Source: Synechococcus sp.
GTDB lineage: Bacteria > Cyanobacteriota > Cyanobacteriia > PCC-6307 > Cyanobiaceae
Reading direction: 5' to 3'
NCBI GenBank assembly: GCA_047285805.1
Contig: JBJBCN010000002.1
Coordinates: forward strand, 160,001-224,000
Length of the DNA: 64,000 bases
The notes under the pieces are model-generated. The model saw only the letters and a program-made list of their open reading frames with translations, made no database searches and was not told the DNA's origin. Below, piece after piece: positions 1,336-58,900 of this stretch (the stretch's first letter is position 1; every line of letters starts with the position of its first letter). The translations under genes and the position numbers were made by a program.

Positions 1336-2763
1336 CTACTCAGGCTCATCGTCCTCCATCAGGTAGGGCAGTGCCCCTCGGGCGGGAGGTACTTGCTCCA
1401 GACCCATTGGCAGCATTGGGATCTCTTTAGTTCCCGGCACTTCCCCTGCGGGTAAAGCTGGGCGTTCTGGAGTTCCCGGGGGGAAGTCGTCGGGAACTTG
1501 GGAGACTTCAGTCACTGACTGACTTCTCGCTAAATTCCTTCCTTCCTCCCTTGCGTCCCCACGCGACTGGAGCCGCTGAAGCTCTTTCGGTGGCAGGGCG
1601 TAGTGACCGCGGTGCGGCCTGACGATTCTCTTCTCGCCGAACAGGCTCCCGAGGGTGTTGTCCACGGTTTTCGCCGCGAAGCTGTGCTTCTGGAACACCT
1701 CGTCGACTACGCCTCTGCGGCTGATCGACATCACCCCGCGCTGATGCCCGCCCCAGAGGACATCGATCACGGCTTCCGAGCAGTTGCCGACGATCTCGAC
1801 TTCCGGTGCGATCAGTAGCTGGCCTGTCTCCCGGTTCAGGCTGTAGACCACACCCCGCAGGGGATCGACCACAGCTGCTCGATCCTTCTTGAACTCGGCT
1901 TTGACGCCAAGGTCTTTGCCTTCGTCATCCTGTTGCCGGCTCAGCCGGATGACCATCGATGGCTCTTCAGCCCTTGCCTTTGCCCCGCTGTGGGCACCGT
2001 CTTTGGTTCCGTCATGGGACAGGAAGACGATGCTCGCGTCGTGTGGCTGGCAGATGCTTTGCCGCAGGTAGCGCAACATGTTGCCGACGCTTTCGTTCGA
2101 CGAGTAGCTCCACCCAGCTGCGCTGCTGACTGACTTCGCAGAGTCGATGAGCACCAAGTCGATCGAGTGCTTTTGGATGAACCGCTTCAGCTCGACAACT
2201 CCGTTGATGTCGGCTCGCCAGGCTTCATGGCCTTGATCTGGGGCGTGAGCCCAAGTCCAGATCATTTGAGCGGGGTCGCCGTTGGTCAGCAGCGCGTCGT
2301 GCGGGTCGATGGCCAGGTCATCCATCGCTTTGATCAGCGGCCCGGCGCCGCTGTCAGTCGCGATGAAGAGGCTGCGCCCCGTGTTGCTGTTGCCTGTTCG
2401 ATCTAGGAACGGCAACCCCTTGGCGAGTGCCCATGCCAAACCCAGCGCCATGGTGGTTTTGCCACAGCCGTAGGACCCGTAGATCAGGGCCGCATCACCC
2501 CTAGGTACCCATCCATCGATCAGATACCGGAGCTGCTCGATCCTGGTGAGGTCAACACCGTCGTGCTTTTTCCTGACCTTGGTTGTGGCCTGGTCTCCAA
2601 GGATTCGGAACAGGCGGCTGTTGATCTGCTCGTCGGTCAGTCGGAACTGCCCCTTGAGCGTCGATCGACAATCCATCTCGTCGTCTTCGCGCCGGTCCCT
2701 AATCGCTTCCAGCAGGAGCTGAAGGGTTTCCGTGAAAGCCAGAGCGTCGCTTGCTTCACTCAT
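1336..2763 (-). CDS. AAA_25/RepA-like (SF4-type) helicase with C-terminal winged-helix-like domain
   Basis: Walker A GSYGCGKT, Walker B LVLIDS, VFLSH motif; C-terminal SRRGVVDEV...TVDNTLGSL...IVRPHRGHY resembles a wHTH. Confidence 0.8.
   Translation of the reverse strand: MSEASDALAFTETLQLLLEAIRDRREDDEMDCRSTLKGQFRLTDEQINSRLFRILGDQATTKVRKKHDGVDLTRIEQLRYLIDGWVPRGDAALIYGSYGCGKTTMALGLAWALAKGLPFLDRTGNSNTGRSLFIATDSGAGPLIKAMDDLAIDPHDALLTNGDPAQMIWTWAHAPDQGHEAWRADINGVVELKRFIQKHSIDLVLIDSAKSVSSAAGWSYSSNESVGNMLRYLRQSICQPHDASIVFLSHDGTKDGAHSGAKARAEEPSMVIRLSRQQDDEGKDLGVKAEFKKDRAAVVDPLRGVVYSLNRETGQLLIAPEVEIVGNCSEAVIDVLWGGHQRGVMSISRRGVVDEVFQKHSFAAKTVDNTLGSLFGEKRIVRPHRGHYALPPKELQRLQSRGDAREEGRNLARSQSVTEVSQVPDDFPPGTPERPALPAGEVPGTKEIPMLPMGLEQVPPARGALPYLMEDDEPE
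1429..1498. repeat. Iteron-like ASTTCCC repeats, candidate replication origin
   Basis: agttccc 1429, acttccc 1439, agttccc 1471; inverted gggaagt 1481 and gggaact 1492. Confidence 0.55.
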
Positions 2764-3355
2764 CTCCCCGCTCCAAAGCTGCGATGTCCTCAGGGGTTGG
2801 GATTCCGAAGAACCACCTCGCGTTGTCGCGCTGGTAGGCGATGGCCTTCATTCGGTTTCTCAGAGTTTTGAGGTGCCGCTTCCAGCTCGGGTCGGCTGCG
2901 GCGATTGACTTCACCACCGGCTCCAACGCCAGCCCCTGGTCGGCGGTGCTGATGATCACGGGTAAATAGCGATCGGCTTCGTCGGCAGTTAGCAGTTCGA
3001 ACTCGGGGCACCGCAATGCTTCGCGGAAGCTGAGGTTGAACTGACGCAGTCGTCGGTAGGCCGCAAGTTGGCGGACCCGTCGTTCTGGTGCCTCTAGCTT
3101 TCTGACTCGCTTGGAAGCAGCCCCTCGGTCGGGCCTGAACTCGAAGGCGTTACCACTGAATCCGGCATCGGTCCTGCCCAGGTGCCAAGCGGCACCGTTG
3201 ACTGAGATGACATCACCAGGTCGCAGGTGTTGCGGCGGATGGAACCGTGTGCCGGAATGGCACAAGATCAGGTCATCGCTGAAACGGCAGTCACCATCAA
3301 CGTTTCGCCCGCAGGCGGGGCATGGCTGTCGCGGACTTAATTTCTGGAGGTGCAT
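2756..3355 (-). CDS. Primase-type zinc-binding-domain protein, no catalytic primase domain evident
   Basis: N-terminal CPACGR...C...LILCH; GGAGG RBS; overlaps the helicase start. Confidence 0.65.
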   Translation of the reverse strand: MHLQKLSPRQPCPACGRNVDGDCRFSDDLILCHSGTRFHPPQHLRPGDVISVNGAAWHLGRTDAGFSGNAFEFRPDRGAASKRVRKLEAPERRVRQLAAYRRLRQFNLSFREALRCPEFELLTADEADRYLPVIISTADQGLALEPVVKSIAAADPSWKRHLKTLRNRMKAIAYQRDNARWFFGIPTPEDIAALERGDE

Positions 3356-3528
3356 CACCGACCTCCTTGCGCATGCTTTGGCGCACTTAGAGCCTTGTCG
3401 GCGAAGTTGAAGCTAGTGGCCTCACTCTTCTTGGCTGTTTTGAACGGTTGCTCCGTTAGCAGCCGATCCGGTCTTAACGTTGGCGTAGCGATATTCCAAC
3501 GGTGACCGGCGCGTTTTGCGTCGGTCAT
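3355..3528 (-). CDS. 57-aa hypothetical protein, translationally coupled
   Basis: Manual translation MTDAKRAGHRW...HAQGGR; TGATG overlap with the next ATG; starts 4 nt after the Xis-like stop. Confidence 0.5.
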   Translation of the reverse strand: MTDAKRAGHRWNIATPTLRPDRLLTEQPFKTAKKSEATSFNFADKALSAPKHAQGGR

Positions 3529-3532
3529 TTTT

Positions 3533-3775
3533 TTATTGGAGTGTCTTCAGAACTGCTTCTGCTCCAAGTCGCATGAGCCCGCGACGGTGAAACTCTGCTC
3601 TGCACGCAGTGACGTTCCAGCTAATCGCCGATGCACCGGTTGGTCCGTAACTCCAGTGACGACCGGCAACTAAAAAGCCGCCATCAATGTCGCGATAACG
3701 CTTGAGAGTTTTTGCGCTGTAGCAAAGCGCGTGAATAGCCAGTGGCGTTGGCAGCCACTCGTCTGAGGAATTCAT
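3533..3775 (-). CDS. Putative excisionase / HTH DNA-binding protein
   Basis: 80 aa, EWLPT..A..AL..SAKTLKRYRD..GG.L..G.HW, a MerR/Xis-like HTH pattern next to an integrase. Confidence 0.7.
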   Translation of the reverse strand: MNSSDEWLPTPLAIHALCYSAKTLKRYRDIDGGFLVAGRHWSYGPTGASAISWNVTACRAEFHRRGLMRLGAEAVLKTLQ

Positions 3776-4049
3776 TTCTCATTGGAGGTGCCTTGCTCTA
3801 CGAGTGTTCCGCTTAAGCCTCTTCTCTCCCGTAAGGAGTGGGCAGAACTAACTCGGAGACACCCACCGGCGTAGCCGTCAACTCAGACTCCCACAGGGAG
3901 ATGGGCACAGCCCTCAAACTGAATTCAGTGGTTCAATCCGATTACGACGCGGCACAGCCTTGTCGATTTCGCAATCGAGCCTTGGCACAACCATGACTCG
4001 AAGGTTCTTTGTCCGGATGAGCAAGTTATCCGGCGTGAACAAATTACTT

Positions 4050-5381
4050 CTAGATGGATTCCCTGGGTATGTCAAGGGTCGCCAAGGTGCACCAGGGATT
4101 AATTCCATTGTTGGATCCTATTTGTAGCTTCGCTACTGCATCTTTCAGCCCCGCGTCATCTACCCATCGTCCGTAAGTTGAGTGGTGGACTTGTGGGCTG
4201 TGTCCCATGAGTGCTGCTGCATCTCTGATCGCCATGGGTCGGTCGTAAGCCTTGTGCGCCCGCCATGCCCACCCGTGCCGAAGGCTGTATGGCGTCAGGC
4301 CGGGATGTTTCGCCACCAGCGACTGCCAGGGCTTGTATCGCTCTAGTTGTTGGCGGAACTCATCACCAACAGGCTTCCAGCCTTTCTCGTCCACTGTGTT
4401 GATGCGTTTCAGCAGTGCCGCTGGGAACTGGACCATCCCGCTGCGCCACAACGCCAGTATTCGCTGCCCCTCGCCCTCGCGTCCAGGGATGTCCAAGGGT
4501 TGAACAAGTCGGGGCGCTTTCACCCGCTGCCTCAGTGTCTTGCTGTTGCGTTTGACGGTGCTTCGGACCTTCAGGTCACCGTCTTCAACCACCAAGGCGC
4601 CCAGTTCGGCTGGTCGGAGCCCGTAGAGCCCAACTAGTGCCGTCGCCAGCATCAAGCCCACCTTGTCGTCAGCACGCATTGCGTCCAGGAGATTCCCTAG
4701 GTCCTCGGGCATCACCGGCGGGGTCAGGGCGTACTCGGTTGGTCGGTCGTCCGCCCCGACTAGCTCTCGGACTTCCTCCCGTTCCAGAGGCAGCCATCGC
4801 TGGTCGTATCCGAAGTGCTTAACGGCAAAGCGCAGAAGCCCGGAAACGTTGTTGAGCTGCGTGACCCGTCCGCTTCCCCCAGGGCGGCATTGAGCGAAGT
4901 GCTGTGCGGCATAGCAGCGCATCAGTTGACTTCCGTCTCTCGGGCGCGGCTTGCGGTCCAGGGTCTCCAGTACCCGCTGCATGTGGCAGTTCAGATCCTT
5001 GAGGGTTGTTCCACGACGGTTGGCTCGTGAGGCAATGAATTCCTCCACCACCAGCGGCCACCCTTGATCTGCCACGGGCTTGGAGGACGTCGCCGGAGCT
5101 GCCTCTCTGGCGCTCCATAGCGCCTTCGCATCAGCCAGGGAGCAATGCCGGCTATCCACCAGCTCTTTGATGCTGCAGACCGCCGTGAGGATCGCTGCGG
5201 AGTCGGTGGCGGACCATCCCGTGCCCAGCATCACGCTCTGCCTGGGATTCGCCTGCTGCCTGCCCTCGTTGAAGCGCCTTGTGAGCTGGCAATCACCATT
5301 GCGCTCGGCAATGCCCCAGCCGGGTCCGCAGGAGTGCTTGATCTGCCGTCTCAAGCCCTGAAACCACTGTTCCCGACTCAT
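4050..5381 (-). CDS. Tyrosine recombinase / integrase
   Basis: YGLRPAEL (R), YSLRH, MGH, TYGRW (Y); likely start MSREQW at 5381. Confidence 0.92.
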   Translation of the reverse strand: MSREQWFQGLRRQIKHSCGPGWGIAERNGDCQLTRRFNEGRQQANPRQSVMLGTGWSATDSAAILTAVCSIKELVDSRHCSLADAKALWSAREAAPATSSKPVADQGWPLVVEEFIASRANRRGTTLKDLNCHMQRVLETLDRKPRPRDGSQLMRCYAAQHFAQCRPGGSGRVTQLNNVSGLLRFAVKHFGYDQRWLPLEREEVRELVGADDRPTEYALTPPVMPEDLGNLLDAMRADDKVGLMLATALVGLYGLRPAELGALVVEDGDLKVRSTVKRNSKTLRQRVKAPRLVQPLDIPGREGEGQRILALWRSGMVQFPAALLKRINTVDEKGWKPVGDEFRQQLERYKPWQSLVAKHPGLTPYSLRHGWAWRAHKAYDRPMAIRDAAALMGHSPQVHHSTYGRWVDDAGLKDAVAKLQIGSNNGINPWCTLATLDIPRESI

Positions 5382-5382
5382 G

Positions 5383-5464
5383 TGCGCAGAAATTTCCCCA
5401 TGCGCAGAATCATGCGCAGAAGTGGGGTTCTCTGGGATGCCCCAGGTAGGACAACATGCGCAGA
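5383..5464. repeat. Four TGCGCAGA direct repeats, putative integrase arm-type sites
   Basis: tgcgcaga at 5383, 5401, 5413, 5457; three preceded by ca. Confidence 0.6.
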
Positions 5465-5481
5465 TGCTGCGTCCTAGGCAC

Positions 5482-5506
5482 AAAAAAACCCAGTCAGTGA
5501 CTGGGT
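5482..5506 (-). terminator. Terminator after tRNA-Ala
   Basis: Minus strand ACCCAGTC-act-GACTGGGT followed by a T run. Confidence 0.75.
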
Positions 5507-5514
5507 CCTCTAAG

Positions 5515-5587
5515 TGGAGCCAAGGAGACTCGAACTCCTGACCCCCTGCATGCCATGCAGGTGCTCTACCAGCTGAGCTATGGCCCC
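5515..5587 (-). tRNA. tRNA-Ala (GGC)
   Basis: GGGGCCATAGCTCAGCTGGTAGAGCACCTGCATGGCATGCAGGGGGTCAGGAGTTCGAGTCTCCTTGGCTCCA folds as a cloverleaf with anticodon GGC. Confidence 0.98.
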
Positions 5588-30600: not shown

Positions 30601-31584
30601 TCAGCTGTCGCCGCGGTACCCGAGTTCCGCGAGCCGCGATGAGCTGCGGCGCCAGTTGGGAACGACCTTGACGAAGAGCTCCAGGTATACCGGGCCGGAG
30701 ATCAGCTTCTGCATCTGTTGGCGAGCGCCCGTGCCGATCTGGCGAAGCATCCGTCCGCCTTTGCCGATCAGGATTCCTTTCTGACTGGTGCGCTCCACGA
30801 GCACGGTGGCAAGGACCGCGGTGCGCTCCTTGTCATCGACGATCCGCTCGATTTGCACGGCGACTGAGTGGGGGATCTCTTCGCGGGTGTGCTGGAGGAC
30901 CTGCTCGCGAATCAGCTCCGCCAGCAGCAGCTGCTCCGGTTGGTCGCTGACCGCATCGGGGGGGTAGAGGTGCGGCCCCTCCGGCAGCTCAGCCGCCAGG
31001 GCATTGACGAGCGCATCGGTGCCATCGCCATTGAGGGCGCTGACGGGGTGGAGGGGCCAACTAGGTACGAGTTCGCGGTAGCTGGTCTCCAGCTCGGCGG
31101 CCTGGTCGGGATCCACGAGATCGCATTTGTTTAGGGCGACCTGGACTGGCACTTTGGTGCGCTCGAGCAGCTCGACGATGAAGCCATCCCCGCGGCCGGC
31201 GGCCTGGCTGCCATCCACAAGCAGCAGCACCTGATCGACTTCACCGATCGCGCCACGGGCGGTCTGTACGAGCCGCTCCCCCAGCAGGTGATGGGGCTTG
31301 TGGATCCCGGGGGTGTCCACGAGCACCAGCTGGGCCGTGGGCGTGGTGAGGATCGCCCGCAGCCGGTTGCGGGTGGTTTGGGCCACCGGGGAGGTGATTG
31401 CCACCTTCTCGCCGACCAATTGATTCATCAGGGTGGACTTGCCCACGTTGGGCCGTCCCACTAGGGCGACAAAGCCTGAACGAAAGCCTTCGGGGCTCTG
31501 CCCCAGGGTGAAGCCACCGGCTACGGCCTTGGCCGGCAGATCGCTGAGATCTGGGAAAGGCAGCAACTGGTCGTGTGACTCCAT
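30601..31584 (-). CDS. era: GTPase Era
   Basis: GRPNVGKS, DTPG, NKCD, KH domain (IGKGG); start is ATG 31584 or TTG 31566. Confidence 0.97.
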   Translation of the reverse strand: MESHDQLLPFPDLSDLPAKAVAGGFTLGQSPEGFRSGFVALVGRPNVGKSTLMNQLVGEKVAITSPVAQTTRNRLRAILTTPTAQLVLVDTPGIHKPHHLLGERLVQTARGAIGEVDQVLLLVDGSQAAGRGDGFIVELLERTKVPVQVALNKCDLVDPDQAAELETSYRELVPSWPLHPVSALNGDGTDALVNALAAELPEGPHLYPPDAVSDQPEQLLLAELIREQVLQHTREEIPHSVAVQIERIVDDKERTAVLATVLVERTSQKGILIGKGGRMLRQIGTGARQQMQKLISGPVYLELFVKVVPNWRRSSSRLAELGYRGDS

Positions 31585-31702
31585 AGTCTCAACAAATGTG
31601 TTCAAGCGTTGCTATTACTGAGATCACAGGCGTGCACTGACCTCTGGACAGACACTAAGCACAGACATTTGACCTCTTTCACGCATCGTTCCACTCAACT
31701 CC

Positions 31703-32851
31703 ATGGCCCGGCCTGTCTCTGGTCCAAGACGCATCGACAACAGCGGTACGTGGTTCGCCGTGAAGATCATTGGCGGCCGCAAATTCATGAAGTCCCTCGG
31801 GACGAAGAACAAGGTTGAGGCACTGAGGCGCTGGCCCGCTGCTCTCGAAGATCTCGAGCGTCGAGCAAACCCTGAGAAGCCAAGACCTACTGATGTCCTG
31901 GACGTCAGCCACCTCGATCCGACCACTGGGAAGCAGTGGGAGGAGCGGGAACGTGCCATCGACTTGCTCCCTGCCTCAGCCATCGACTGGTCCGAGAATG
32001 AGGAAGACGACGGAAAGATCTCATGGACCGAGGCGGCAACCATCGCGGAGCAGCGTTGGAAGCGAAAGAACGGAGGGGAGGGCTACAGCCGCACGTGGTG
32101 GGAGGCGACACGTCGTGCCATCACCTTCTGCCCAGTGGGACCGGAGGAGCTTCAGCCTCGGCATATCCGCCAGATGATCATCGAGATGGAGGCCGCCGGC
32201 ATGAGGCCTCAGTCCGCCTCTCAACGATGCAGCTGCCTCTCTAGTCTGCTAACTGCACTCATCAAGTCCGGTGCTGCTGACCACCTGACCAACCCATTCA
32301 GCAAGGTCGATTACTCGGTCAAGAGCAGGATCCATTACAGAACCCCATCAACTCAGGAGTACAAGGCGGTGTGGCAAAGGAGGCACGAGATGCCCGAAGG
32401 CTGCGCTGAGGTGCTCGAGATCCTGATCTTCAGTGGTGCTCGCATCGAAGAGGTGCTGCAAGCGAGGTACAGCGATGGGTGGATGACCATGGAGAAGACC
32501 CCTGATTGGTCACCGAAGAACGCAACCTCCTATCGACGACTGCCATTGCCTGAGGGCATGGCCCTCTCTCGTTTCAGCACGCCAAGCGCTCAGGTGTTCA
32601 GGAAGAAGATGAAGCGGATTGCCCCAGCAGTGGAGGAAGCGGCGTCCATGCCGCTTACTCCGCATTGCTTCAGGCACGGATGGAGAACAGCAGCCCGGAT
32701 GGGTGGAGCTGACGATTACCTCAGCGAACGACTGCTGGGTCACCGGGCAGGGTTAGCCATGTCGATGACGTACGGCGAGTACCCGGATGAGCTGCTGCAG
32801 CGAGAGGCCGAGAAGGTCTGGGCTGTGCTGCGTCAGTGGCTCGACAGCTGA
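31703..32851 (+). CDS. Tyrosine recombinase / integrase
   Basis: SGARIEE (R), PKN (K), HCFRH, LGH, MTYG (Y); N-terminal arm-binding-like KSLGTK region. Confidence 0.92.
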   Translation: MARPVSGPRRIDNSGTWFAVKIIGGRKFMKSLGTKNKVEALRRWPAALEDLERRANPEKPRPTDVLDVSHLDPTTGKQWEERERAIDLLPASAIDWSENEEDDGKISWTEAATIAEQRWKRKNGGEGYSRTWWEATRRAITFCPVGPEELQPRHIRQMIIEMEAAGMRPQSASQRCSCLSSLLTALIKSGAADHLTNPFSKVDYSVKSRIHYRTPSTQEYKAVWQRRHEMPEGCAEVLEILIFSGARIEEVLQARYSDGWMTMEKTPDWSPKNATSYRRLPLPEGMALSRFSTPSAQVFRKKMKRIAPAVEEAASMPLTPHCFRHGWRTAARMGGADDYLSERLLGHRAGLAMSMTYGEYPDELLQREAEKVWAVLRQWLDS

Positions 32852-33027
32852 ATCGAGCAACAGTCGATTTGGCTGTCGGGGGTAAATCTCCTCAACAGTT
32901 GATTTAGTTGCCCCATCAATCCTTTGTTGTGAAAGGTCAACACGCCTCGAGTAAATCGTCAGGACACACAAGTTGACAAACTCAGAATCTGAAGCAAATC
33001 AGCAGGAGCTTTTTGCTCTCGCTGAGA

Positions 33028-34242
33028 TTAAGTATTTGCTCCTGCCGATTTCAACTTCTTAAGCACCTGCATGCAGGTCCATTTCAGTGGTACCCACTGC
33101 GCCTTTGTCGCGAGTTGCTCCAGCAGCCCTGCTTGATCATCCAGGCCCATTGCAAGGCAGCCCCAGGCAGCGGCAATCCTGGATTTGGTGTACTGAGGAA
33201 TAGTTTCAGCCAGTGCCAGCCGCACCAGTTCGCTTCTAGTTTCAATCCTTTGAAGGCTGACCACGGCAGTGAGGTAGTAGTGCGTGACGTAATCACTCCA
33301 TAACTTGTCTTTGATTCGGTCAATCAGGACGAGTTTCTCCTCTTCTTCCATCGACATCAGGCTTGCAGCGCCACCGTATTGACGTGCTTCATCCCTGTGT
33401 TGAAGATTGTTTTCGATTTCATCGGCGTTAACGTCACAGACCCATTCCGTTCTCAGCTTTAAATTTTGTGGATTGTCCTGCAGTAATTGAGTGATCAATC
33501 CTTCGTACTCTTGAGGGACAACACAGGTTTTCCCTGGATCAACCAGTTGAAAGGCACTTCTCGCTCGTAGGGACATTGAGACCGGAGCCGTCGCTAGTGA
33601 CTCGAGTCGACTGACGTCCCCTGCATCGCCAAGATCAATGACTGCAGAACGGCGTCGACCCGCGATTGGGTCCACCAGTTGGGGAACCAAGGTATCTAAG
33701 GCTGTTGTCCTGCCATGAACCTTTGAGCCATAGGCTCTGGCTGCTCCCGACACCAGTGGATTTGGGTCTTCGTCAAAGGGCTTGATGGCATGGTCTGCGC
33801 CTTCAATTCCAAGCCGGGTATGAGCTTGGATCACGGCGCGTTTTTGGATGTCCTCTCCTCCCAGGGCCTGAAGTAGCTGATTTTGCTGCTCGGTATCCAG
33901 CTCGGAGCTGATTTTTGTGATCGAGTCCACTGCGTTGATCACAGCTGATTCATCGCTGCAGCTCAATGCTGCAAACAGAACAGGCAGTGCTTTGGGGTTG
34001 CGCCGCCGTCCCAAGGCGTCTAGGGCTTTTCTTATCGTAATCCGATCAAACAGGTTGTCAGGACTGAGTTGCGCGGCTTCGATCAGTGTGTTCAGGGACT
34101 CTTCGCTGTCACTGGCACCTAGCCTCGTTGCTGCCATGTACTTATCAACTGGTCGCTCCAGCGAGTCCGGGGCAGCCAGAATGATGCTGATCGCACGTTC
34201 CTCAGTAAGGCCTTCTACAAGATTGTCAAAACGTTCAGGCAT
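33028..34242 (-). CDS. mpeQ: MpeQ/W/Y/Z-family HEAT-repeat phycobilin lyase, MpeQ-type lyase-isomerase signature
   Basis: 404 aa; [68 protein letters not shown]; counted positions A100, Y318, V319, T320, Y323, T352, K353 agree with MpeQ as recalled. Confidence 0.85.
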
Positions 34243-34326
34243 TGATGAGCCTTTTGATTAATAGTTCCAATTAGCGATTGACTCGCCAGAGGTCAAAATC
34301 TTGGGTCGACGCGGGCTGAGATTTGC

Positions 34327-34396
34327 GCCAAGAGCCGTTGGCTGACCTTATAGCCAGATATTATCATGCCATTGCTGTGCCAAGAGGTCTTGGCTG
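34327..34396. promoter_or_regulatory. Two GCCAA-N6-TTGGC palindromes upstream of the lyase gene
   Basis: GCCAAGAGccgTTGGCTG at 34327 and GCCAAGAGgtcTTGGCTG at 34379. Confidence 0.55.
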
Positions 34397-35044
34397 CCGC
34401 AGTCAGTAGTCTTCATCCTTGTTTCTGTATGTCTCTGATTGTTTTTTTATTAATCATTTGAGCTTTAGATGTTATGAGGGGGTATTAGTCCAGGTATGTC
34501 CCCCTGCTTTGCCAAGAAGAGGGGGTGGGGTACTTCGTTTTTCTTGGGGAGGGGGCACCCCTCATGGTTCGACCTGCTCCGAAACGCAAGTCGGGGTTGC
34601 AATGTGGCGAAATCCTGGCCAATCCAGTGGTATCACTCGGTTCCGACTACTAACCGAATCTGGTTGACGTCCAAGAGTTTTTTATGCATACGGTCAGTGA
34701 CCGAGGATGAGAACCATTCGCCTCGCTCGCGTTCTTAATGCCTGCGCGGCTGCGCGCGTCTTTCTTTGGTTGTCTGTTGCGCACAAATTTATACCTAGGT
34801 AGAACACTGAATATATTGCAGGAGGCCTCTGTAAGGGTCCGCAAGGGGCCTCTCGGCTTCCCTGGCGTTGGCCTGCCGTCCAACGACTACAAGCCCTTCC
34901 AGGCGTTTTTGGGCAGACCTAGTCACAGGTGCCATCTCTTGTCACTGCAGACACTAAGCGCATAAGCCCTTGCTGAGAACCCGCATCAGCACTGAAGTTC
35001 TGTGACTAGACTTGCAAGCTAACCTTGGCAGTCCAACCTCCCCC

Positions 35045-35572
35045 ATGACTGAAGCCGCCCCGCTGGAGCCCACGTTTCAACAGGCGATGGAGATCACGGC
35101 CCAGTGGCTGGCGCTCTGGGAAAACGGCGAACTCAGCGATGAGGTGATCGGCGATCGGGTTTCCGAGTTGGTGGCCAGTCGTGATGGAGCCCGGGGGTTC
35201 TTTGTGGTGTCCTTGGCTGGGGATTGTCCGTTGATGGATCGCCTGCCGGATCCGGTCGTCTTTGCCCTGCGCCAGGCCGGCGACGGGGTGGTGGACCTCA
35301 GTGCTCGCAACCTGGCCATGAGCACGGCGATGGCGCTGCACCACGAGCGCAACGCCGATGCAGTTCAGCAGGCGGGATCGGAGCGGGTTCAATCCCGCTG
35401 CACCGAACTCCTGCGGCTCATGGAGCAGGAAGCAGTGAAAGGGCGACTGGAAACCCTGCTGGAGGCCACCGAGGGCCGGGGTGAGGACGTGGCCTTCCTG
35501 AAACGCTGGGGCTACGACGCCGGTCAGACCGCTGCAATTGCTGAGGCGGTGTTGGCCGTGGCCCAAGGCTGA
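35045..35572 (+). CDS. Conserved hypothetical protein
   Basis: PTFQQAM...W...ELSDEV..DRV..LV..RDGARGFFV; host-like composition. Confidence 0.8.
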   Translation: MTEAAPLEPTFQQAMEITAQWLALWENGELSDEVIGDRVSELVASRDGARGFFVVSLAGDCPLMDRLPDPVVFALRQAGDGVVDLSARNLAMSTAMALHHERNADAVQQAGSERVQSRCTELLRLMEQEAVKGRLETLLEATEGRGEDVAFLKRWGYDAGQTAAIAEAVLAVAQG

Positions 35573-55544: not shown

Positions 55545-55628
55545 GGGACCATGGCGGAATTGGTAGACGCAGCGGACTTAAAATCCGCAGACGGCAACGT
55601 TGTGAGGGTTCAAGTCCCTCTGGTCCCA
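55545..55628 (+). tRNA. tRNA-Leu (UAA), intronless
   Basis: GGGACCA...GCGGA-CTTAAAA-TCCGC, long variable arm, GGTTCAAGTCC, TGGTCCCA. Confidence 0.97.
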
Positions 55629-55629
55629 C

Positions 55630-56367
55630 TCAACGGGCTTCGCCGTTCATCCAGCTGATCCAGTCCGCTGAGATCTCTTTTGGGCAGACGGCTTCGCACT
55701 CGAGGTTGCTGCTGCAACGGCCAAACCCCTCGGCCTCCATCGCTGCCTGCATGGCCAGAGCCCTAGAACGCCGTTCCGGTTGCCCTTGCGGCAGTTGACC
55801 CAAGTGCGCGAGCTTGGCGGCCGTGAAGAGGCTCGCTGAAGCATTGCGGCAGCTAGCGACGCAGGCCCCGCAGCCGATGCACATGGCGGTTTCAAAGGCT
55901 GCAAGGGCCTGGTCTTGCCCGATCAACATCGCGTTGCCACTCGTAGCCTGGCCGGTGTTGACCGAGCAGTAGCCCCCGGCGGCGATGATCCGATCGAAAG
56001 CCGAGCGCTCCACTCCGAGGTCTTGGATGAGGGGGAAAGCCGCTGCGCGCCACGGCTCCAACGTCACCGTCTCTCCGTTCTGGAACTGCCGGACATAGAG
56101 CTGACAGACGGTCGTCGCTCTTTGAGAGCCATGGGCCTGACCATTGACAAGAAAACCGCAACTGCCGCAGATCCCCTCTCTGCAGTCGTGCTCGAAATAG
56201 ATCGGCCTCTCGCCGCGGCGGATCAGCTGATCGTTAAGCTTATCCAATACCTCAAGTAGTGAAAGATCCGGACTGAGTCCTTGGACGGGGTAGGAGCAAA
56301 AGGCGCCCCTGGTTTGACCGTTCTCTTGTCGCCAGACCCGCAGCGTGAGGGAGAGAGTTGTGGTCAT
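55630..56367 (-). CDS. sdhB: Succinate dehydrogenase/fumarate reductase Fe-S subunit
   Basis: CREGICGSC, CIGCGAC...C, C.....C...CP. Confidence 0.95.
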   Translation of the reverse strand: MTTTLSLTLRVWRQENGQTRGAFCSYPVQGLSPDLSLLEVLDKLNDQLIRRGERPIYFEHDCREGICGSCGFLVNGQAHGSQRATTVCQLYVRQFQNGETVTLEPWRAAAFPLIQDLGVERSAFDRIIAAGGYCSVNTGQATSGNAMLIGQDQALAAFETAMCIGCGACVASCRNASASLFTAAKLAHLGQLPQGQPERRSRALAMQAAMEAEGFGRCSSNLECEAVCPKEISADWISWMNGEAR

Positions 56368-58286
56368 CGGTAACTGCGGGTGCTTGGTTGAAGAGCCGAG
56401 AACAAAAGCGGTTCTTGATGGCGAATCGGCTCGGCACCGTCCTGGTGTTCCCAGGCGGCAATGTGGGCGAAGTGTTCATCTTTCCTGAGGGCTTCTCCCT
56501 CAGGGGTTTGGTGTTCTTCGCGGAAATGGGCTCCACAAGATTCCTCTCGGGCTAGCGCGTCCCGCAGCATGAGTTGGGCGAGGCCAAAGAAGTCACTCAA
56601 TCGCAGCCCCTTCTCCAATTCGACATTGGGACCCGTGGCAGTCCCAGGGATTCGCACCTGGCCTCGAAAGGCTTGCTCGAGTTGATGAACCTCTTGGATC
56701 CCCTTCTCTAATCCGCTCGCATCACGACTAATGCCGCAGCGCTGAATCATCGTCAGGCCGAGTTGACGGTGAAAGTTGTCAACGGGAATGTCGCCGTTGG
56801 TGTTCAGAAGGCTTTGGATTCGAGTTTCTGCGGCGGCCTTGGCTGCGCGGCAGGACGGATGCTCCTCGTTCACGGCAGGTGTGGGGTGACCGGCAAGCCA
56901 TGCCGTCACGGTCGCCGGGGCGATGAAATAGCCGTCTGCAAGGCCCTGCATGAGAGCACTGGCTCCGAGGCGGTTGGCACCGTGTTCTGAGAAGTTGGCT
57001 TCTCCGAGTACAAAGAGTCCTGGGATTGAACTCATCAGGTGGTAGTCCACCCAGAGTCCGCCCATGGTGTAGTGCGGAGCGGGGTAAATCTTGAGCGGTT
57101 TGGCATAGGGGTCTTCACCGCTGATGTGCTCATACATCTCCAGCAAGTTGCCGTAGCGCTTGGCAATGACATCTCTGCCGTTGTGTTGTATCGCATCGCG
57201 GAGATCGAGGTAGATCGAGCGGCCGGCTGGGCCAACGCCTTTGCCCGCATTGCAGAGTTCCCTCGCCCTGCGGGAGGCCACATCCCGCGGCACCATGTTC
57301 CCGTAGCTGGGGTATTGGCGCTCGAGGAAATAATCCCGTTCCGATTCCGGAATGGACTCCGGATCTCTGGTGTCATGGCTCTCTTGCGGAAGCCAGACGC
57401 GACCGTCATTGCGCAGGCTCTCGCTCATGAGCGTCAGCTTGCTTTGGTAAGGGTCGCCGCTTGGAATGCAGGTTGGGTGGATCTGCGTGAAGCAGGGGTT
57501 GGCAAACAAGGCCCCTTGCTCATGGGCCCTCCAGATCGCACTGGCGTTGGACTTCAGGGCATTGGTGGAGAGGAAGTAGACGTTGCTGTAGCCCCCGCTG
57601 GCCAGCACAACGGCGTGGCCGGTGTGGGTTTCGAGAGCACCGCTTAGCAGGTTGCGGCAGATGACCCCACGGGCGACGCCATCAATGCGGATCAGTTCGA
57701 CGAGATCGCGGCGAGGAAGCAGTTCAATCCGTCCAAGCTGCACTTGGCGCATCAAGGCCTGGTAGGCGCCGTAGAGAAGTTGTTGACCGGTTTGCCCCCT
57801 GGCGTAAAAGGTGCGGCTCACCAAGGATCCCCCGAAATTGCGGGTGGCCAGAGTGCCGCCGTATTCCCGGGCGAAGGGAACCCCCTGGGCCACGCATTGG
57901 TCAATGATTGAGCTGCTGATCTCAGCCAGACGGTGACAGCCGGCCTCACGTGCGCGGAAGTCTCCGCCGCGGACGGTATCCCTGAACAGTCGGCTCACAC
58001 TGTCTCCGTCAACGGCGAGGGGACGGGCGGCGTTGATTCCGCCCTGGGCTGCGACCGAGTGAGCCCGGCGTGGACTGTCGTGAAAGGTGATCACTTTCAC
58101 GCGGTACCCCTGCTCCGCCAGGGTTGCCGCCGCCGAGGATCCCGCTAATCCAGTCCCGACCACGAGGACTGTCAGCTCGCGCTTGCGCAGCGGGCTGATG
58201 AGGGGGAGTTCCTCTTTGGTGCGTCTCCAGGCGTCGCTGACGGGACCCCCCGGCAGGTGGGGATTCGGCGTGTTCATCGGGATCAA
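56364..58286 (-). CDS. sdhA: Succinate dehydrogenase/fumarate reductase flavoprotein
   Basis: GTGLAG, AHSVAAQGG, QIHPT, HYTMGG, HGANRLG. Confidence 0.96.
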   Translation of the reverse strand: MIPMNTPNPHLPGGPVSDAWRRTKEELPLISPLRKRELTVLVVGTGLAGSSAAATLAEQGYRVKVITFHDSPRRAHSVAAQGGINAARPLAVDGDSVSRLFRDTVRGGDFRAREAGCHRLAEISSSIIDQCVAQGVPFAREYGGTLATRNFGGSLVSRTFYARGQTGQQLLYGAYQALMRQVQLGRIELLPRRDLVELIRIDGVARGVICRNLLSGALETHTGHAVVLASGGYSNVYFLSTNALKSNASAIWRAHEQGALFANPCFTQIHPTCIPSGDPYQSKLTLMSESLRNDGRVWLPQESHDTRDPESIPESERDYFLERQYPSYGNMVPRDVASRRARELCNAGKGVGPAGRSIYLDLRDAIQHNGRDVIAKRYGNLLEMYEHISGEDPYAKPLKIYPAPHYTMGGLWVDYHLMSSIPGLFVLGEANFSEHGANRLGASALMQGLADGYFIAPATVTAWLAGHPTPAVNEEHPSCRAAKAAAETRIQSLLNTNGDIPVDNFHRQLGLTMIQRCGISRDASGLEKGIQEVHQLEQAFRGQVRIPGTATGPNVELEKGLRLSDFFGLAQLMLRDALAREESCGAHFREEHQTPEGEALRKDEHFAHIAAWEHQDGAEPIRHQEPLLFSALQPSTRSYR

Positions 58287-58900
58287 CCCAGCAGAGCCAG
58301 CCAGCTGGCTGATCCGGTGAAACCAAGGCCGAGGAGGACTCCCGCCGCTCGGGCGATTTGGCGGATGACTGCAGCGTTCTGTGGTGTGAGCAACCCCAAG
58401 CTGCGCTGCGCCGATTCCCCGCCTTGGATGATGTGCAGGCTGAGGGCCAGACAGGCCACTGCGTAGAGCAACAGCGTGAGAGGAGCGTGGAGGCTTGCGC
58501 TCAACTGCATGAGTTCAAATCCAGGGGCAGGTCGCGGCAGCCTCAGTTGTTTGAGGTGGACGGCGAGGAAGAGCAGCAGGGTGATTCCTCCGATCGGTTG
58601 TAACCGAGCGCTCCAGCTCCCTAGCGGGTCCTTGCGTCGGCTCTTGAGTTGGGCGTGGTTGCCCGCTTTCCAGTTCTTCAGAGCCTTGCTCAGGCTGAGG
58701 CTGGCATGCGTGATCGCGGCAAAGAGCAACAGCCCTTCGAGCAGGGGAAGCCACCAGCTCTGGTGGAGGACGCTGGCGTAGCACTCGAACTGCAGCGGCG
58801 CGACGGGCGCCAGGCCGACGCCGATGAGATGAGCAACCAGAAAGGCCATCAGCACCAGTCCGGACCCAGCAAGGAGGATGCGGCGGACCATGGCGACCAT
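58283..58900 (-). CDS. sdhC: Succinate dehydrogenase cytochrome b subunit
   Basis: Five TM helices with His ligands; first gene of the operon. Confidence 0.88.
   Translation of the reverse strand: MVAMVRRILLAGSGLVLMAFLVAHLIGVGLAPVAPLQFECYASVLHQSWWLPLLEGLLLFAAITHASLSLSKALKNWKAGNHAQLKSRRKDPLGSWSARLQPIGGITLLLFLAVHLKQLRLPRPAPGFELMQLSASLHAPLTLLLYAVACLALSLHIIQGGESAQRSLGLLTPQNAAVIRQIARAAGVLLGLGFTGSASWLALLG

What the first reader, a model, noticed from the sequence alone, without database searches (positions are those of the whole stretch)
31574..35007. Minimal mobile pigment cassette: integrase plus a lone MpeQ-type phycourobilin lyase-isomerase
Seen: a 3.4-kb AT-richer insert with only two credible genes, an intact-looking tyrosine integrase and a 404-aa HEAT-repeat lyase with WSDYVTHYY (Y318, V319, T320, Y323) and PQYTK (T352, K353). 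Established, as recalled: the MpeQ/W/Y/Z family attaches a bilin at Cys83 of the phycoerythrin-II alpha subunit MpeA; Val319 marks isomerases that make blue-absorbing PUB, Gly319 marks plain PEB lyases; mpeQ/mpeY sit in the phycobilisome rod gene cluster, and mpeZ/mpeW sit in CA4 islands with fciA/fciB. Here there is no mpeBA, fciA/fciB or other rod gene alongside. Inference: a self-integrating single-gene module that could shift antenna colour towards blue, either by competing with a resident MpeY or by being switched through excision or its own operator.
Basis: partly seen in the sequence, partly recalled or inferred. Interest (0 to 1): 0.92.

Follow-up and report, generated by a model that had tools for sequence, protein, structure and literature searches.

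The report
Mobile gene rebuilds antenna colour switch
A coastal-type cyanobacterium that has lost its own enzyme for attaching a pigment to its light antenna carries a blue-pigment version on a small self-inserting DNA element and a green-pigment version with its regulators on a second one, so it may have rebuilt a blue/green colour switch from borrowed parts.

Summary
The insert is real: 3.43 kb (about 31592-35021), placed 7 bp before the era start codon, absent in 28 of 29 relatives' loci. It holds an intact tyrosine integrase and a 1.57-kb piece lifted from another lineage's phycobilisome rod region: mpeQ with its promoter (91% nt to MIT S9452; MpeQ clade; Val319). All other mpeQ examined sit beside mpeB.

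It is not lone in function. The host (Vulcanococcus-like) has a pigment-type-3a rod whose mpeY is decayed (4 stops, 3 frameshifts). A second element at tRNA-Ser carries a displaced CA4-B island (fciA, fciB, mpeW, unk10), from a different donor clade. MpeQ and MpeW are the known competing pair at MpeA Cys83, so the host probably rebuilt that pair in trans; there is no MpeY to compete with. Papers read say CA4-B always lies inside the rod region and that 3a strains gaining islands do not acclimate.

Expression, activity on this MpeA, excision and colour change are untested. One genome only.

The parts
31592..35021 (.). Integrated element, 3.43 kb, between era and a divergent conserved gene; ends uncertain by 1-3 bp
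   Evidence: Empty site in 28 of 29 relative loci; junction from the four closest; GC 0.54
31703..32851 (+). Tyrosine integrase, 382 aa, lambda-Int-like three-domain build
   Evidence: R247, K272, H321, R324, H347, Y357 invariant in 7 aligned rows; model pLDDT 78.5 matches lambda Int at E 3e-7; Pfam hit below cut-off
32942..34508 (-). Captured rod-region fragment: the interval between unk9 and mpeB of a 3dB-type donor
   Evidence: 91% nt over 1568 bp to L030 (MIT S9452) and L040
33028..34242 (-). mpeQ, PEB lyase-isomerase for MpeA Cys83; stop codon read through by 6 residues against its closest relatives
   Evidence: E 3.5e-189 over residues 1-397 to PDB 7MC4; in MpeQ-context clade, sister to L030; V319, Y323, T352; TAA to TCG change
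34350..34368 (-). Weak copy of a motif conserved in CA4 islands; candidate FciA/FciB box, 124 bp upstream of mpeQ
   Evidence: Score 9.4, rank 21 of 4.7 million positions, 16 of 2000 shuffles reach it; donor-lineage copies score 10.2-20.6
31649..31660 (+). Left copy of 12-bp direct repeat, candidate integrase arm site
   Evidence: Only 2 copies in the genome; 3 of 5000 shuffles give a shared 12-mer
34948..34959 (+). Right copy of the 12-bp direct repeat
34509..35021 (.). Non-coding right arm of the element, origin unknown
   Evidence: No match in loci held, in Rfam or in plasmids
30601..31584 (-). era GTPase (host flank, intact); the element sits in its ribosome-binding region
35045..35572 (+). 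Conserved hypothetical host gene (right flank)
   Evidence: Found in 40 of 45 genus genomes

Best explanation
An integrase element captured mpeQ with its promoter from a 3dB-type donor and inserted before era. The host has a green-light-type (3a) rod with a dead mpeY. MpeQ now attaches PEB at MpeA Cys83 and isomerises it to PUB. A second element at tRNA-Ser supplies MpeW (PEB lyase), FciA, FciB and Unk10. In green light mpeW is induced and PEB wins at Cys83; in blue light MpeQ puts PUB there. The result would be a low-amplitude CA4-B-like switch on a 3a antenna, limited because MpeU, MpeV and MpeC are missing and both beta subunits keep His141. Shown: gene content, identities, positions, decay of mpeY and mpeU. 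Taken from papers: enzyme roles and light control in 3dB strains. Inferred: expression, activity on this MpeA, and the phenotype.
For: mpeY remnant has 4 stops and 3 frameshifts and G319; the only intact family members in the genome are the cassette MpeQ and the island MpeW. Island layout is mpeU remnant-fciA-fciB-mpeW-unk10, 77-85% nt to ten 3dB rods, bounded by a tRNA-Ser 3' repeat, with its own integrase. The mpeU piece is truncated and frameshifted while the four genes next to it are intact, which points to retention of those four. dN/dS 0.10 for mpeQ, 0.10 for fciA/fciB, 0.19-0.22 for mpeW. The island keeps its conserved boxes at top scores. Two donors: MpeQ is sister to L030, but L030's own fciA/fciB/mpeW are only 51/57/47% identical to the host's, against 83/84/91% for L141. 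MpeQ/MpeW competition at Cys83 is described in passages of 10.64898/2026.10.21.760676 and PMC10904595; mpeW induction in green light in PMC3877281.
Against: No expression data: no RNA run was listed (not evidence either way). dN/dS spans the donor's history, so it does not show selection on mpeQ inside this host. MpeQ has not been tested on a 3a-type MpeA (82-85% identical to MpeQ's usual substrates). Strains with complete islands can fail to acclimate (WH8109, WH8103, MVIR-18-1), and PMC8995045 says no 3a strain that gained a CA4-A island acclimates. The candidate box before mpeQ is weaker than donor copies, and most other mpeQ promoters lack it. One genome only.
Confidence: 0.45

Rival explanations
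1. MpeQ is active and replaces MpeY, but the phenotype is fixed: PUB (or a fixed mix with MpeW) at Cys83, with no light response. This would parallel the 3cA mutants that lost mpeY and rely on a remote isomerase.
For: Precedent for mpeY loss with fixed high PUB (PMC8995045); G370 has a 3dA rod without mpeY and a remote lone mpeZ; complete islands can be silent.
Against: fciA, fciB, mpeW and unk10 are intact beside a decayed mpeU, and the island's boxes are conserved. In the 3cA mutants fciA/fciB are lost.
Confidence: 0.3
2. The cassette is a recent passenger. MpeW alone took over from MpeY, and mpeQ is silent or cannot use the 3a-type MpeA.
For: Integrase is intact, so arrival may be recent, while mpeY and mpeU have many lesions; selection within the host is not shown; no sigma-70-like site was found on the mpeQ strand upstream of the gene.
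Against: The cargo is exactly one pigment gene plus 266 bp of upstream DNA, and it is the one partner that MpeW lacks; changes on the branch to the cassette copy are 12 silent to 5 replacement codons; the scan is a crude consensus.
Confidence: 0.2
3. One reading: colour is set by competition with resident MpeY, or switched by excision of the element.
For: Intact integrase and matching end repeats make excision possible.
Against: mpeY is a pseudogene; no excisionase-sized partner was recognised in the cassette; no joint across the ends in two assemblies (contigs drop rare forms).
Confidence: 0.04
4. Assembly chimera of a 3a strain and a 3dB strain from a mixed culture.
For: Unusual mix of alleles; the tRNA-Ser island was not checked against reads.
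Against: Flat depth and single contigs across the cassette; contamination 0.11%, one mpeA; att duplication at the island and decayed mpeU inside it.
Confidence: 0.01

Closest known systems
CA4-B system of pigment type 3dB Synechococcus (mpeQ in the rod; fciA-fciB-mpeW-unk10 between mpeU and cpeZ)
   Same: Same five genes, same island order and orientation, V319/G319 pair, PE-II substrate present.
   Different: mpeQ is on its own integrase element; the island is outside the rod at tRNA-Ser; the two parts come from different clades; the rod is 3a (cpeF, fused unk8/7, no mpeU/mpeC, His141); host genus has PE-II in only 2 of 45 genomes.
PT 3aA strains (MVIR-18-1, WH8016, KORDI-49): 3a rod plus CA4-A island, no acclimation (PMC8995045, PMC3877281)
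   Same: Green-light rod that gained a CA4 island by transfer.
   Different: Here the island is CA4-B, the matching rod enzyme was also gained, and the resident mpeY was lost.
PT 3cA / BIOS-E4-1-like mutants (degenerate mpeY, remote mpeZ, fciA/fciB lost)
   Same: Decayed mpeY with an isomerase elsewhere in the genome.
   Different: Those have a 3dA rod, use MpeZ and lack regulators; here 3a rod, MpeQ, intact regulators and MpeW.
Tycheposon-like elements of picocyanobacteria
   Same: Integrase element with niche cargo; the tRNA-Ser island fits well (tRNA target, att repeat, integrase, AlpA-like gene).
   Different: The mpeQ cassette has no tRNA target and no long att duplication, and uses a divergent integrase (best relatives 39-42%).

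Membership tests
MpeQ lyase-isomerase | Falls in the MpeQ clade of the MpeW/Q/Y/Z family | tested here: met
   inside the 16 MpeQ-context rows (SH-aLRT 94; sister to L030, 100). Quick tree only; labels from gene context, not a curated set. PDB 7MC4 match E 3.5e-189.
MpeQ lyase-isomerase | Y318 and V319 (isomerase) rather than G319 | tested here: met
   role of the residues from PMC9705338 discussion. Shared with MpeZ and 3f MpeY.
MpeQ lyase-isomerase | Gene lies between unk9 and mpeB in the rod region | tested here: not met
   Standalone here; canonical in 31 of 31 loci, 22 of 22, 23 of 23; these sets overlap.
MpeQ lyase-isomerase | Attaches PUB at MpeA Cys83 | not testable with these tools
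   Needs co-expression and mass spectrometry.
CA4-B / pigment type 3dB | fciA, fciB, opposite-strand mpeW, unk10, no fciC between them | tested here: met
   Host C2:1257439-1261359; lyase in MpeW clade with G319.
CA4-B / pigment type 3dB | Island inside the rod region between mpeU and cpeZ | tested here: not met
   At tRNA-Ser on another contig; the 13 other mpeW hits all lie within 7 kb of an mpeQ.
CA4-B / pigment type 3dB | Rod with mpeU, mpeC, split unk7/unk8 and Leu141 beta subunits | tested here: not met
   cpeF groups with 3a CpeF; no close MpeC/MpeU/MpeV match; His141 in MpeB and CpeB.
CA4-B / pigment type 3dB | Reversible Exc495:545 change, mpeW induced in green light | not testable with these tools
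   No RNA holder listed; needs cultures.
Integrative element with tyrosine recombinase | Intact catalytic residues, empty site in relatives, end repeats | tested here: met
Integrative element with tyrosine recombinase | Excision or presence at other sites or in other hosts | tested here: inconclusive
   No second copy found; one 186-bp contig identical to part of the integrase in marine metagenome run X4.
Tycheposon (for the mpeQ cassette) | Insertion at a tRNA with a duplicated att motif | tested here: not met
   No tRNA near; at most 1-3 shared bases at the junctions.

The most novel reading that the evidence does not exclude
A working new pigment type: a subcluster-5.2-type host with a 3a rod that performs type IV chromatic acclimation using an MpeQ/MpeW pair assembled from two mobile elements of two donors, with FciA/FciB acting through a shared DNA box, possibly also in trans on the cassette's mpeQ. 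It would be the minimal CA4 system (no MpeU, MpeV, MpeC) and a direct green-specialist-to-acclimater route through CA4-B.
Probability: 0.35. Interest if true: 0.9.

Novelty: new variant of a known kind. Interest (0 to 1): 0.78.

Why it matters
The papers read treat CA4-B as fixed inside the rod region, derived only from blue-light specialists, and unlikely to work in simpler pigment types; one (2013) reports no CA4 in subcluster 5.2. This genome breaks the positional rules and shows single lyase genes moving on integrase elements. It is a natural minimal test of whether MpeQ, MpeW and FciA/B suffice for a switch, and of whether the other two CA4 sites (MpeA Cys140, CpeA Cys139) change without MpeU. 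It also matters for field surveys that count mpeBA alleles as 3a and mpeW as 3dB: such a cell would be counted as both. The conserved island motif gives a concrete FciA/FciB binding candidate.

Tried and rejected
TGTGACT as att core: rejected, empty sites keep the left copy with the era start.
Host island as CA4-A/mpeZ (my first reading): rejected by G319, tree and layout.
MpeA E54/R138 as co-adaptation to MpeQ: it tracked V319 enzymes in 43 rows but two further 3a-type rods with intact G319 MpeY (G391, G062) also have E54/R138; rejected.
Searches for the same pair elsewhere found none: IMG/VR with MpeQ and integrase (the alignment scan gave only 20-34% matches); phage and plasmid records; integrase relatives in 21 of 400 family genomes, 9 examined with flanks, none with any of my rod or CA4 query genes.
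Rfam: no match. Promoter scan: 3 sites against 1.5 expected, none upstream of mpeQ on its strand. No RNA holder listed. No excision joint in contigs, which cannot show absence.
A second half-site 21 bp from the mpeQ box was looked for by eye and not seen.
The careful tree did not finish; the quick tree is used. The place of the mpeY remnant in it is unresolved (long branch); its 3a assignment rests on position and best alignment score.
No complex prediction was run. Earlier-findings look-ups by place and by sequence returned nothing.
Full report
THE OBSERVATION. Window 31.6-35.0 kb is an insert of lower GC (0.54 against 0.66 and 0.65 in the flanks) with two credible genes: a 382-aa integrase and a 404-aa HEAT-repeat lyase. 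The right flank gene was found in 39 of 44 other genomes of the genus; of the 29 loci fetched, 28 show era directly next to it with no insert and one has no era in range. The four closest join at window 31591 and 35019-35022, seven bases upstream of the era start codon. The junctions share at most 1-3 bases, so there is no long att duplication. A 12-bp direct repeat lies about 60 bp inside each end; it occurs only twice in the genome and 3 of 5000 shuffles give a shared 12-mer. Two Logan assemblies span the region in one piece with flat depth; both may be the source strain.

THE INTEGRASE. Pfam and NCBIfam hits are below cut-off. The catalytic set R247, K272, H321, R324, H347, Y357 is invariant in seven aligned relatives, and the predicted model matches lambda integrase and Tn1549 integrase structures. 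Best relatives are 39-42% identical. Family members occur in 21 of 400 other family genomes; nine were examined with flanks, most lie at or in low-GC stretches, and none carried any of my rod or CA4 query genes. One 186-bp contig from marine metagenome run X4 is identical to part of the integrase.

THE CARGO. Bases 32942-34508 are 91% identical to the unk9-mpeQ-mpeB interval of MIT S9452 (L030) and of L040, including 266 bp upstream and 86 bp downstream of the gene. The protein matches the solved bilin lyase-isomerase 7MC4 over residues 1-397 at E 3.5e-189 (that 7MC4 is MpeQ is recalled, consistent). In a 72-row tree labelled by gene context it lies inside the MpeQ clade, sister to L030 (quick tree, SH-aLRT 94 for the clade, 100 for the pair). 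It has Y318, V319, Y323, T352. V319 is in 16 of 16 MpeQ, 13 of 13 MpeZ and 3 of 3 3f rows; G319 is in all 12 MpeW, 11 3dA and 8 3a rows. So the motif marks an isomerase, and the tree marks MpeQ. Every other mpeQ examined is in the rod region: 31 of 31 loci, 22 of 22, 23 of 23; the sets overlap. dN/dS to L030 is 0.10, with 12 silent and 5 replacement codons on the branch to the cassette copy; part of that branch may predate the transfer.

THE HOST. Its PhoH clusters at 90% with Synechococcus sp. A10-1-5-1 and a Vulcanococcus MAG; that this is subcluster 5.2 is recalled. MpeA was found in 2 of 45 genus genomes. The rod region (C3:112-138 kb) has the 3a layout: fused unk8/7, no linker after mpeA, cpeF. 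MpeBA is sister to the 3a clade and the CpeF-family gene groups with 3a CpeF. No close MpeU, MpeV, MpeC or RpcG-like match exists apart from the remnant below, and MpeB and CpeB keep His141, which PMC9705338 ties to PEB at Cys50/61. The gene before mpeB is a decayed mpeY: 4 stops, 3 frameshifts, G319, best score to 3a MpeY.

THE SECOND ELEMENT. At C2:1255610-1266072 an element is bounded by tRNA-Ser(CGA) and a 12-bp copy of its 3' end, with a P4-like integrase and an AlpA-like gene (both named by eye). It carries 4.6 kb that is 77-85% identical to the mpeU-fciA-fciB-mpeW-unk10 stretch of ten of the twelve 3dB rods compared. The lyase has G319 and falls in the MpeW clade; its start agrees by eye with the WH8109 mpeW printed in the preprint. 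The mpeU piece is truncated and frameshifted; the other four genes are intact, with dN/dS 0.04-0.22. L030's own fciA, fciB and mpeW are 51, 57 and 47% identical to the host's, against 83, 84 and 91% for L141. The two halves therefore most likely came from two donors. The 13 other mpeW hits in 401 genomes all lie within 7 kb of an mpeQ.

A SHARED MOTIF. A motif of about 17 bp lies before fciA and, as two copies 21 bp apart, before unk10 in most CA4-B islands. A matrix built from 18 non-host CA4-B sites finds a strong site in 8 of 8 complete CA4-A islands, ranks the host island's three sites first of 4.7 million positions, and scores 10-21 before mpeQ in L030 and its nearest relatives but under 5 in the other rod-lyase promoters tested. 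The cassette copy is weaker: 9.4, rank 21, reached by 16 of 2000 shuffles. The 21-bp period fits AraC-type binding (recalled). The seed pattern was first drawn from the host's own sites, so this is a candidate, not a shown operator.

HOW IT LIKELY WORKS. In 3dB strains MpeQ and MpeW compete at MpeA Cys83, and mpeW is induced in green light. This host lost the enzyme that normally serves that site and holds both members of the 3dB pair on separate elements. The simplest reading is a rebuilt pair acting in trans on a 3a antenna, with a smaller colour range than true 3dB. I give this 0.45, an active MpeQ with fixed colour 0.30, and a silent passenger 0.20. The order of events cannot be told; the decay of mpeY and mpeU against an intact integrase hints that the cassette came last.

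AGAINST. Nothing here shows expression or activity. Complete islands can be silent. 3a strains that gained CA4-A islands do not acclimate. An apparent substrate co-adaptation (MpeA E54/R138) failed a control. The integrase-mpeQ pair was seen in one genome only.

WHAT IS IN PRINT. PMC8995045 (sections 3, 10, 11, 14, 15, 16 read), PMC3877281 (passages and section 12) and PMC10904595 (passages) state that CA4-B always lies inside the rod region; PMC3877281 adds that simpler pigment types likely lack too many genes to acclimate after gaining CA4-B and that no CA4 strain was reported in subcluster 5.2. PMC9705338 was read as passages and discussion; the two 2026 preprints as abstract and passages (10.64898/2026.10.21.760676) or passages only (10.64898/2026.07.10.737521). 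Nine library searches listed no paper whose title or abstract start describes a standalone mpeQ, a displaced CA4-B island or an Fci binding motif; most listed papers were not opened. The library lacks most subscription papers: Grebert 2021, Kumarapperuma 2022 and Sanfilippo 2016/2019 were seen only as cited by others, and no supplements or Cyanorak pages were seen. These could describe the motif or a similar strain.

VERDICT. Real feature; new variant of a known system. Interest 0.78.

Noticed in passing
G000 C2:1255610-1266147 (outside window; partly L002): Displaced CA4-B island in a tRNA-Ser(CGA) element with integrase, AlpA-like gene, hsdM-like fragment and decayed mpeU remnant.
   Followed up: yes
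G000 C3:126400-127600 (L003): Decayed 3a-type mpeY in an otherwise intact rod region whose alleles are divergent from other 3a rods (CpeY 44-48%, CpeF 63-66%).
   Followed up: yes
L131-L150, upstream of fciA, unk10 and within CA4-A islands: Conserved motif shared by CA4-A and CA4-B islands, tandem at 21 bp before unk10; candidate FciA/FciB box.
   Followed up: partly
L152 (G370 C1:703575-704771) and L242: Lone mpeZ next to glyQ, the same neighbourhood as the host's CA4-B element, in a genome whose 3dA rod lacks mpeY.
   Followed up: partly
L243 (G062 C2:3000-20000): 3a-like rod with rearranged order (mpeA-mpeB-mpeY moved beyond mpeD, about 3 kb gap before unk9) and an MpeY with G319 but T352.
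   Followed up: no
window 1336-5587: Another integrase element at tRNA-Ala(GGC): 443-aa integrase-like ORF (4050-5381), AAA/RecA-like replication ORF (1336-2763), primase-like ORF (2756-3355); named by eye.
   Followed up: no
window 55545-58900: Succinate dehydrogenase/fumarate reductase-like three-gene set right after tRNA-Leu(TAA), GC 0.59; named by eye.
   Followed up: no
G000 C3:111766-112626 and C2:1319659-1320600: A PE-II-type linker lies just outside ptpA at the rod's end; a further rod-linker gene lies in a low-GC patch on C2.
   Followed up: partly
G000 C2:781676-782017: Second unk10-like (Nif11-type) gene, 43-45% to Unk10, in a low-GC patch.
   Followed up: no
L225 (G091 C1:976000-989302): Closest genomic relative of the integrase (42%) precedes a 3051-aa protein in a low-GC island near tRNA-Met.
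   Followed up: partly
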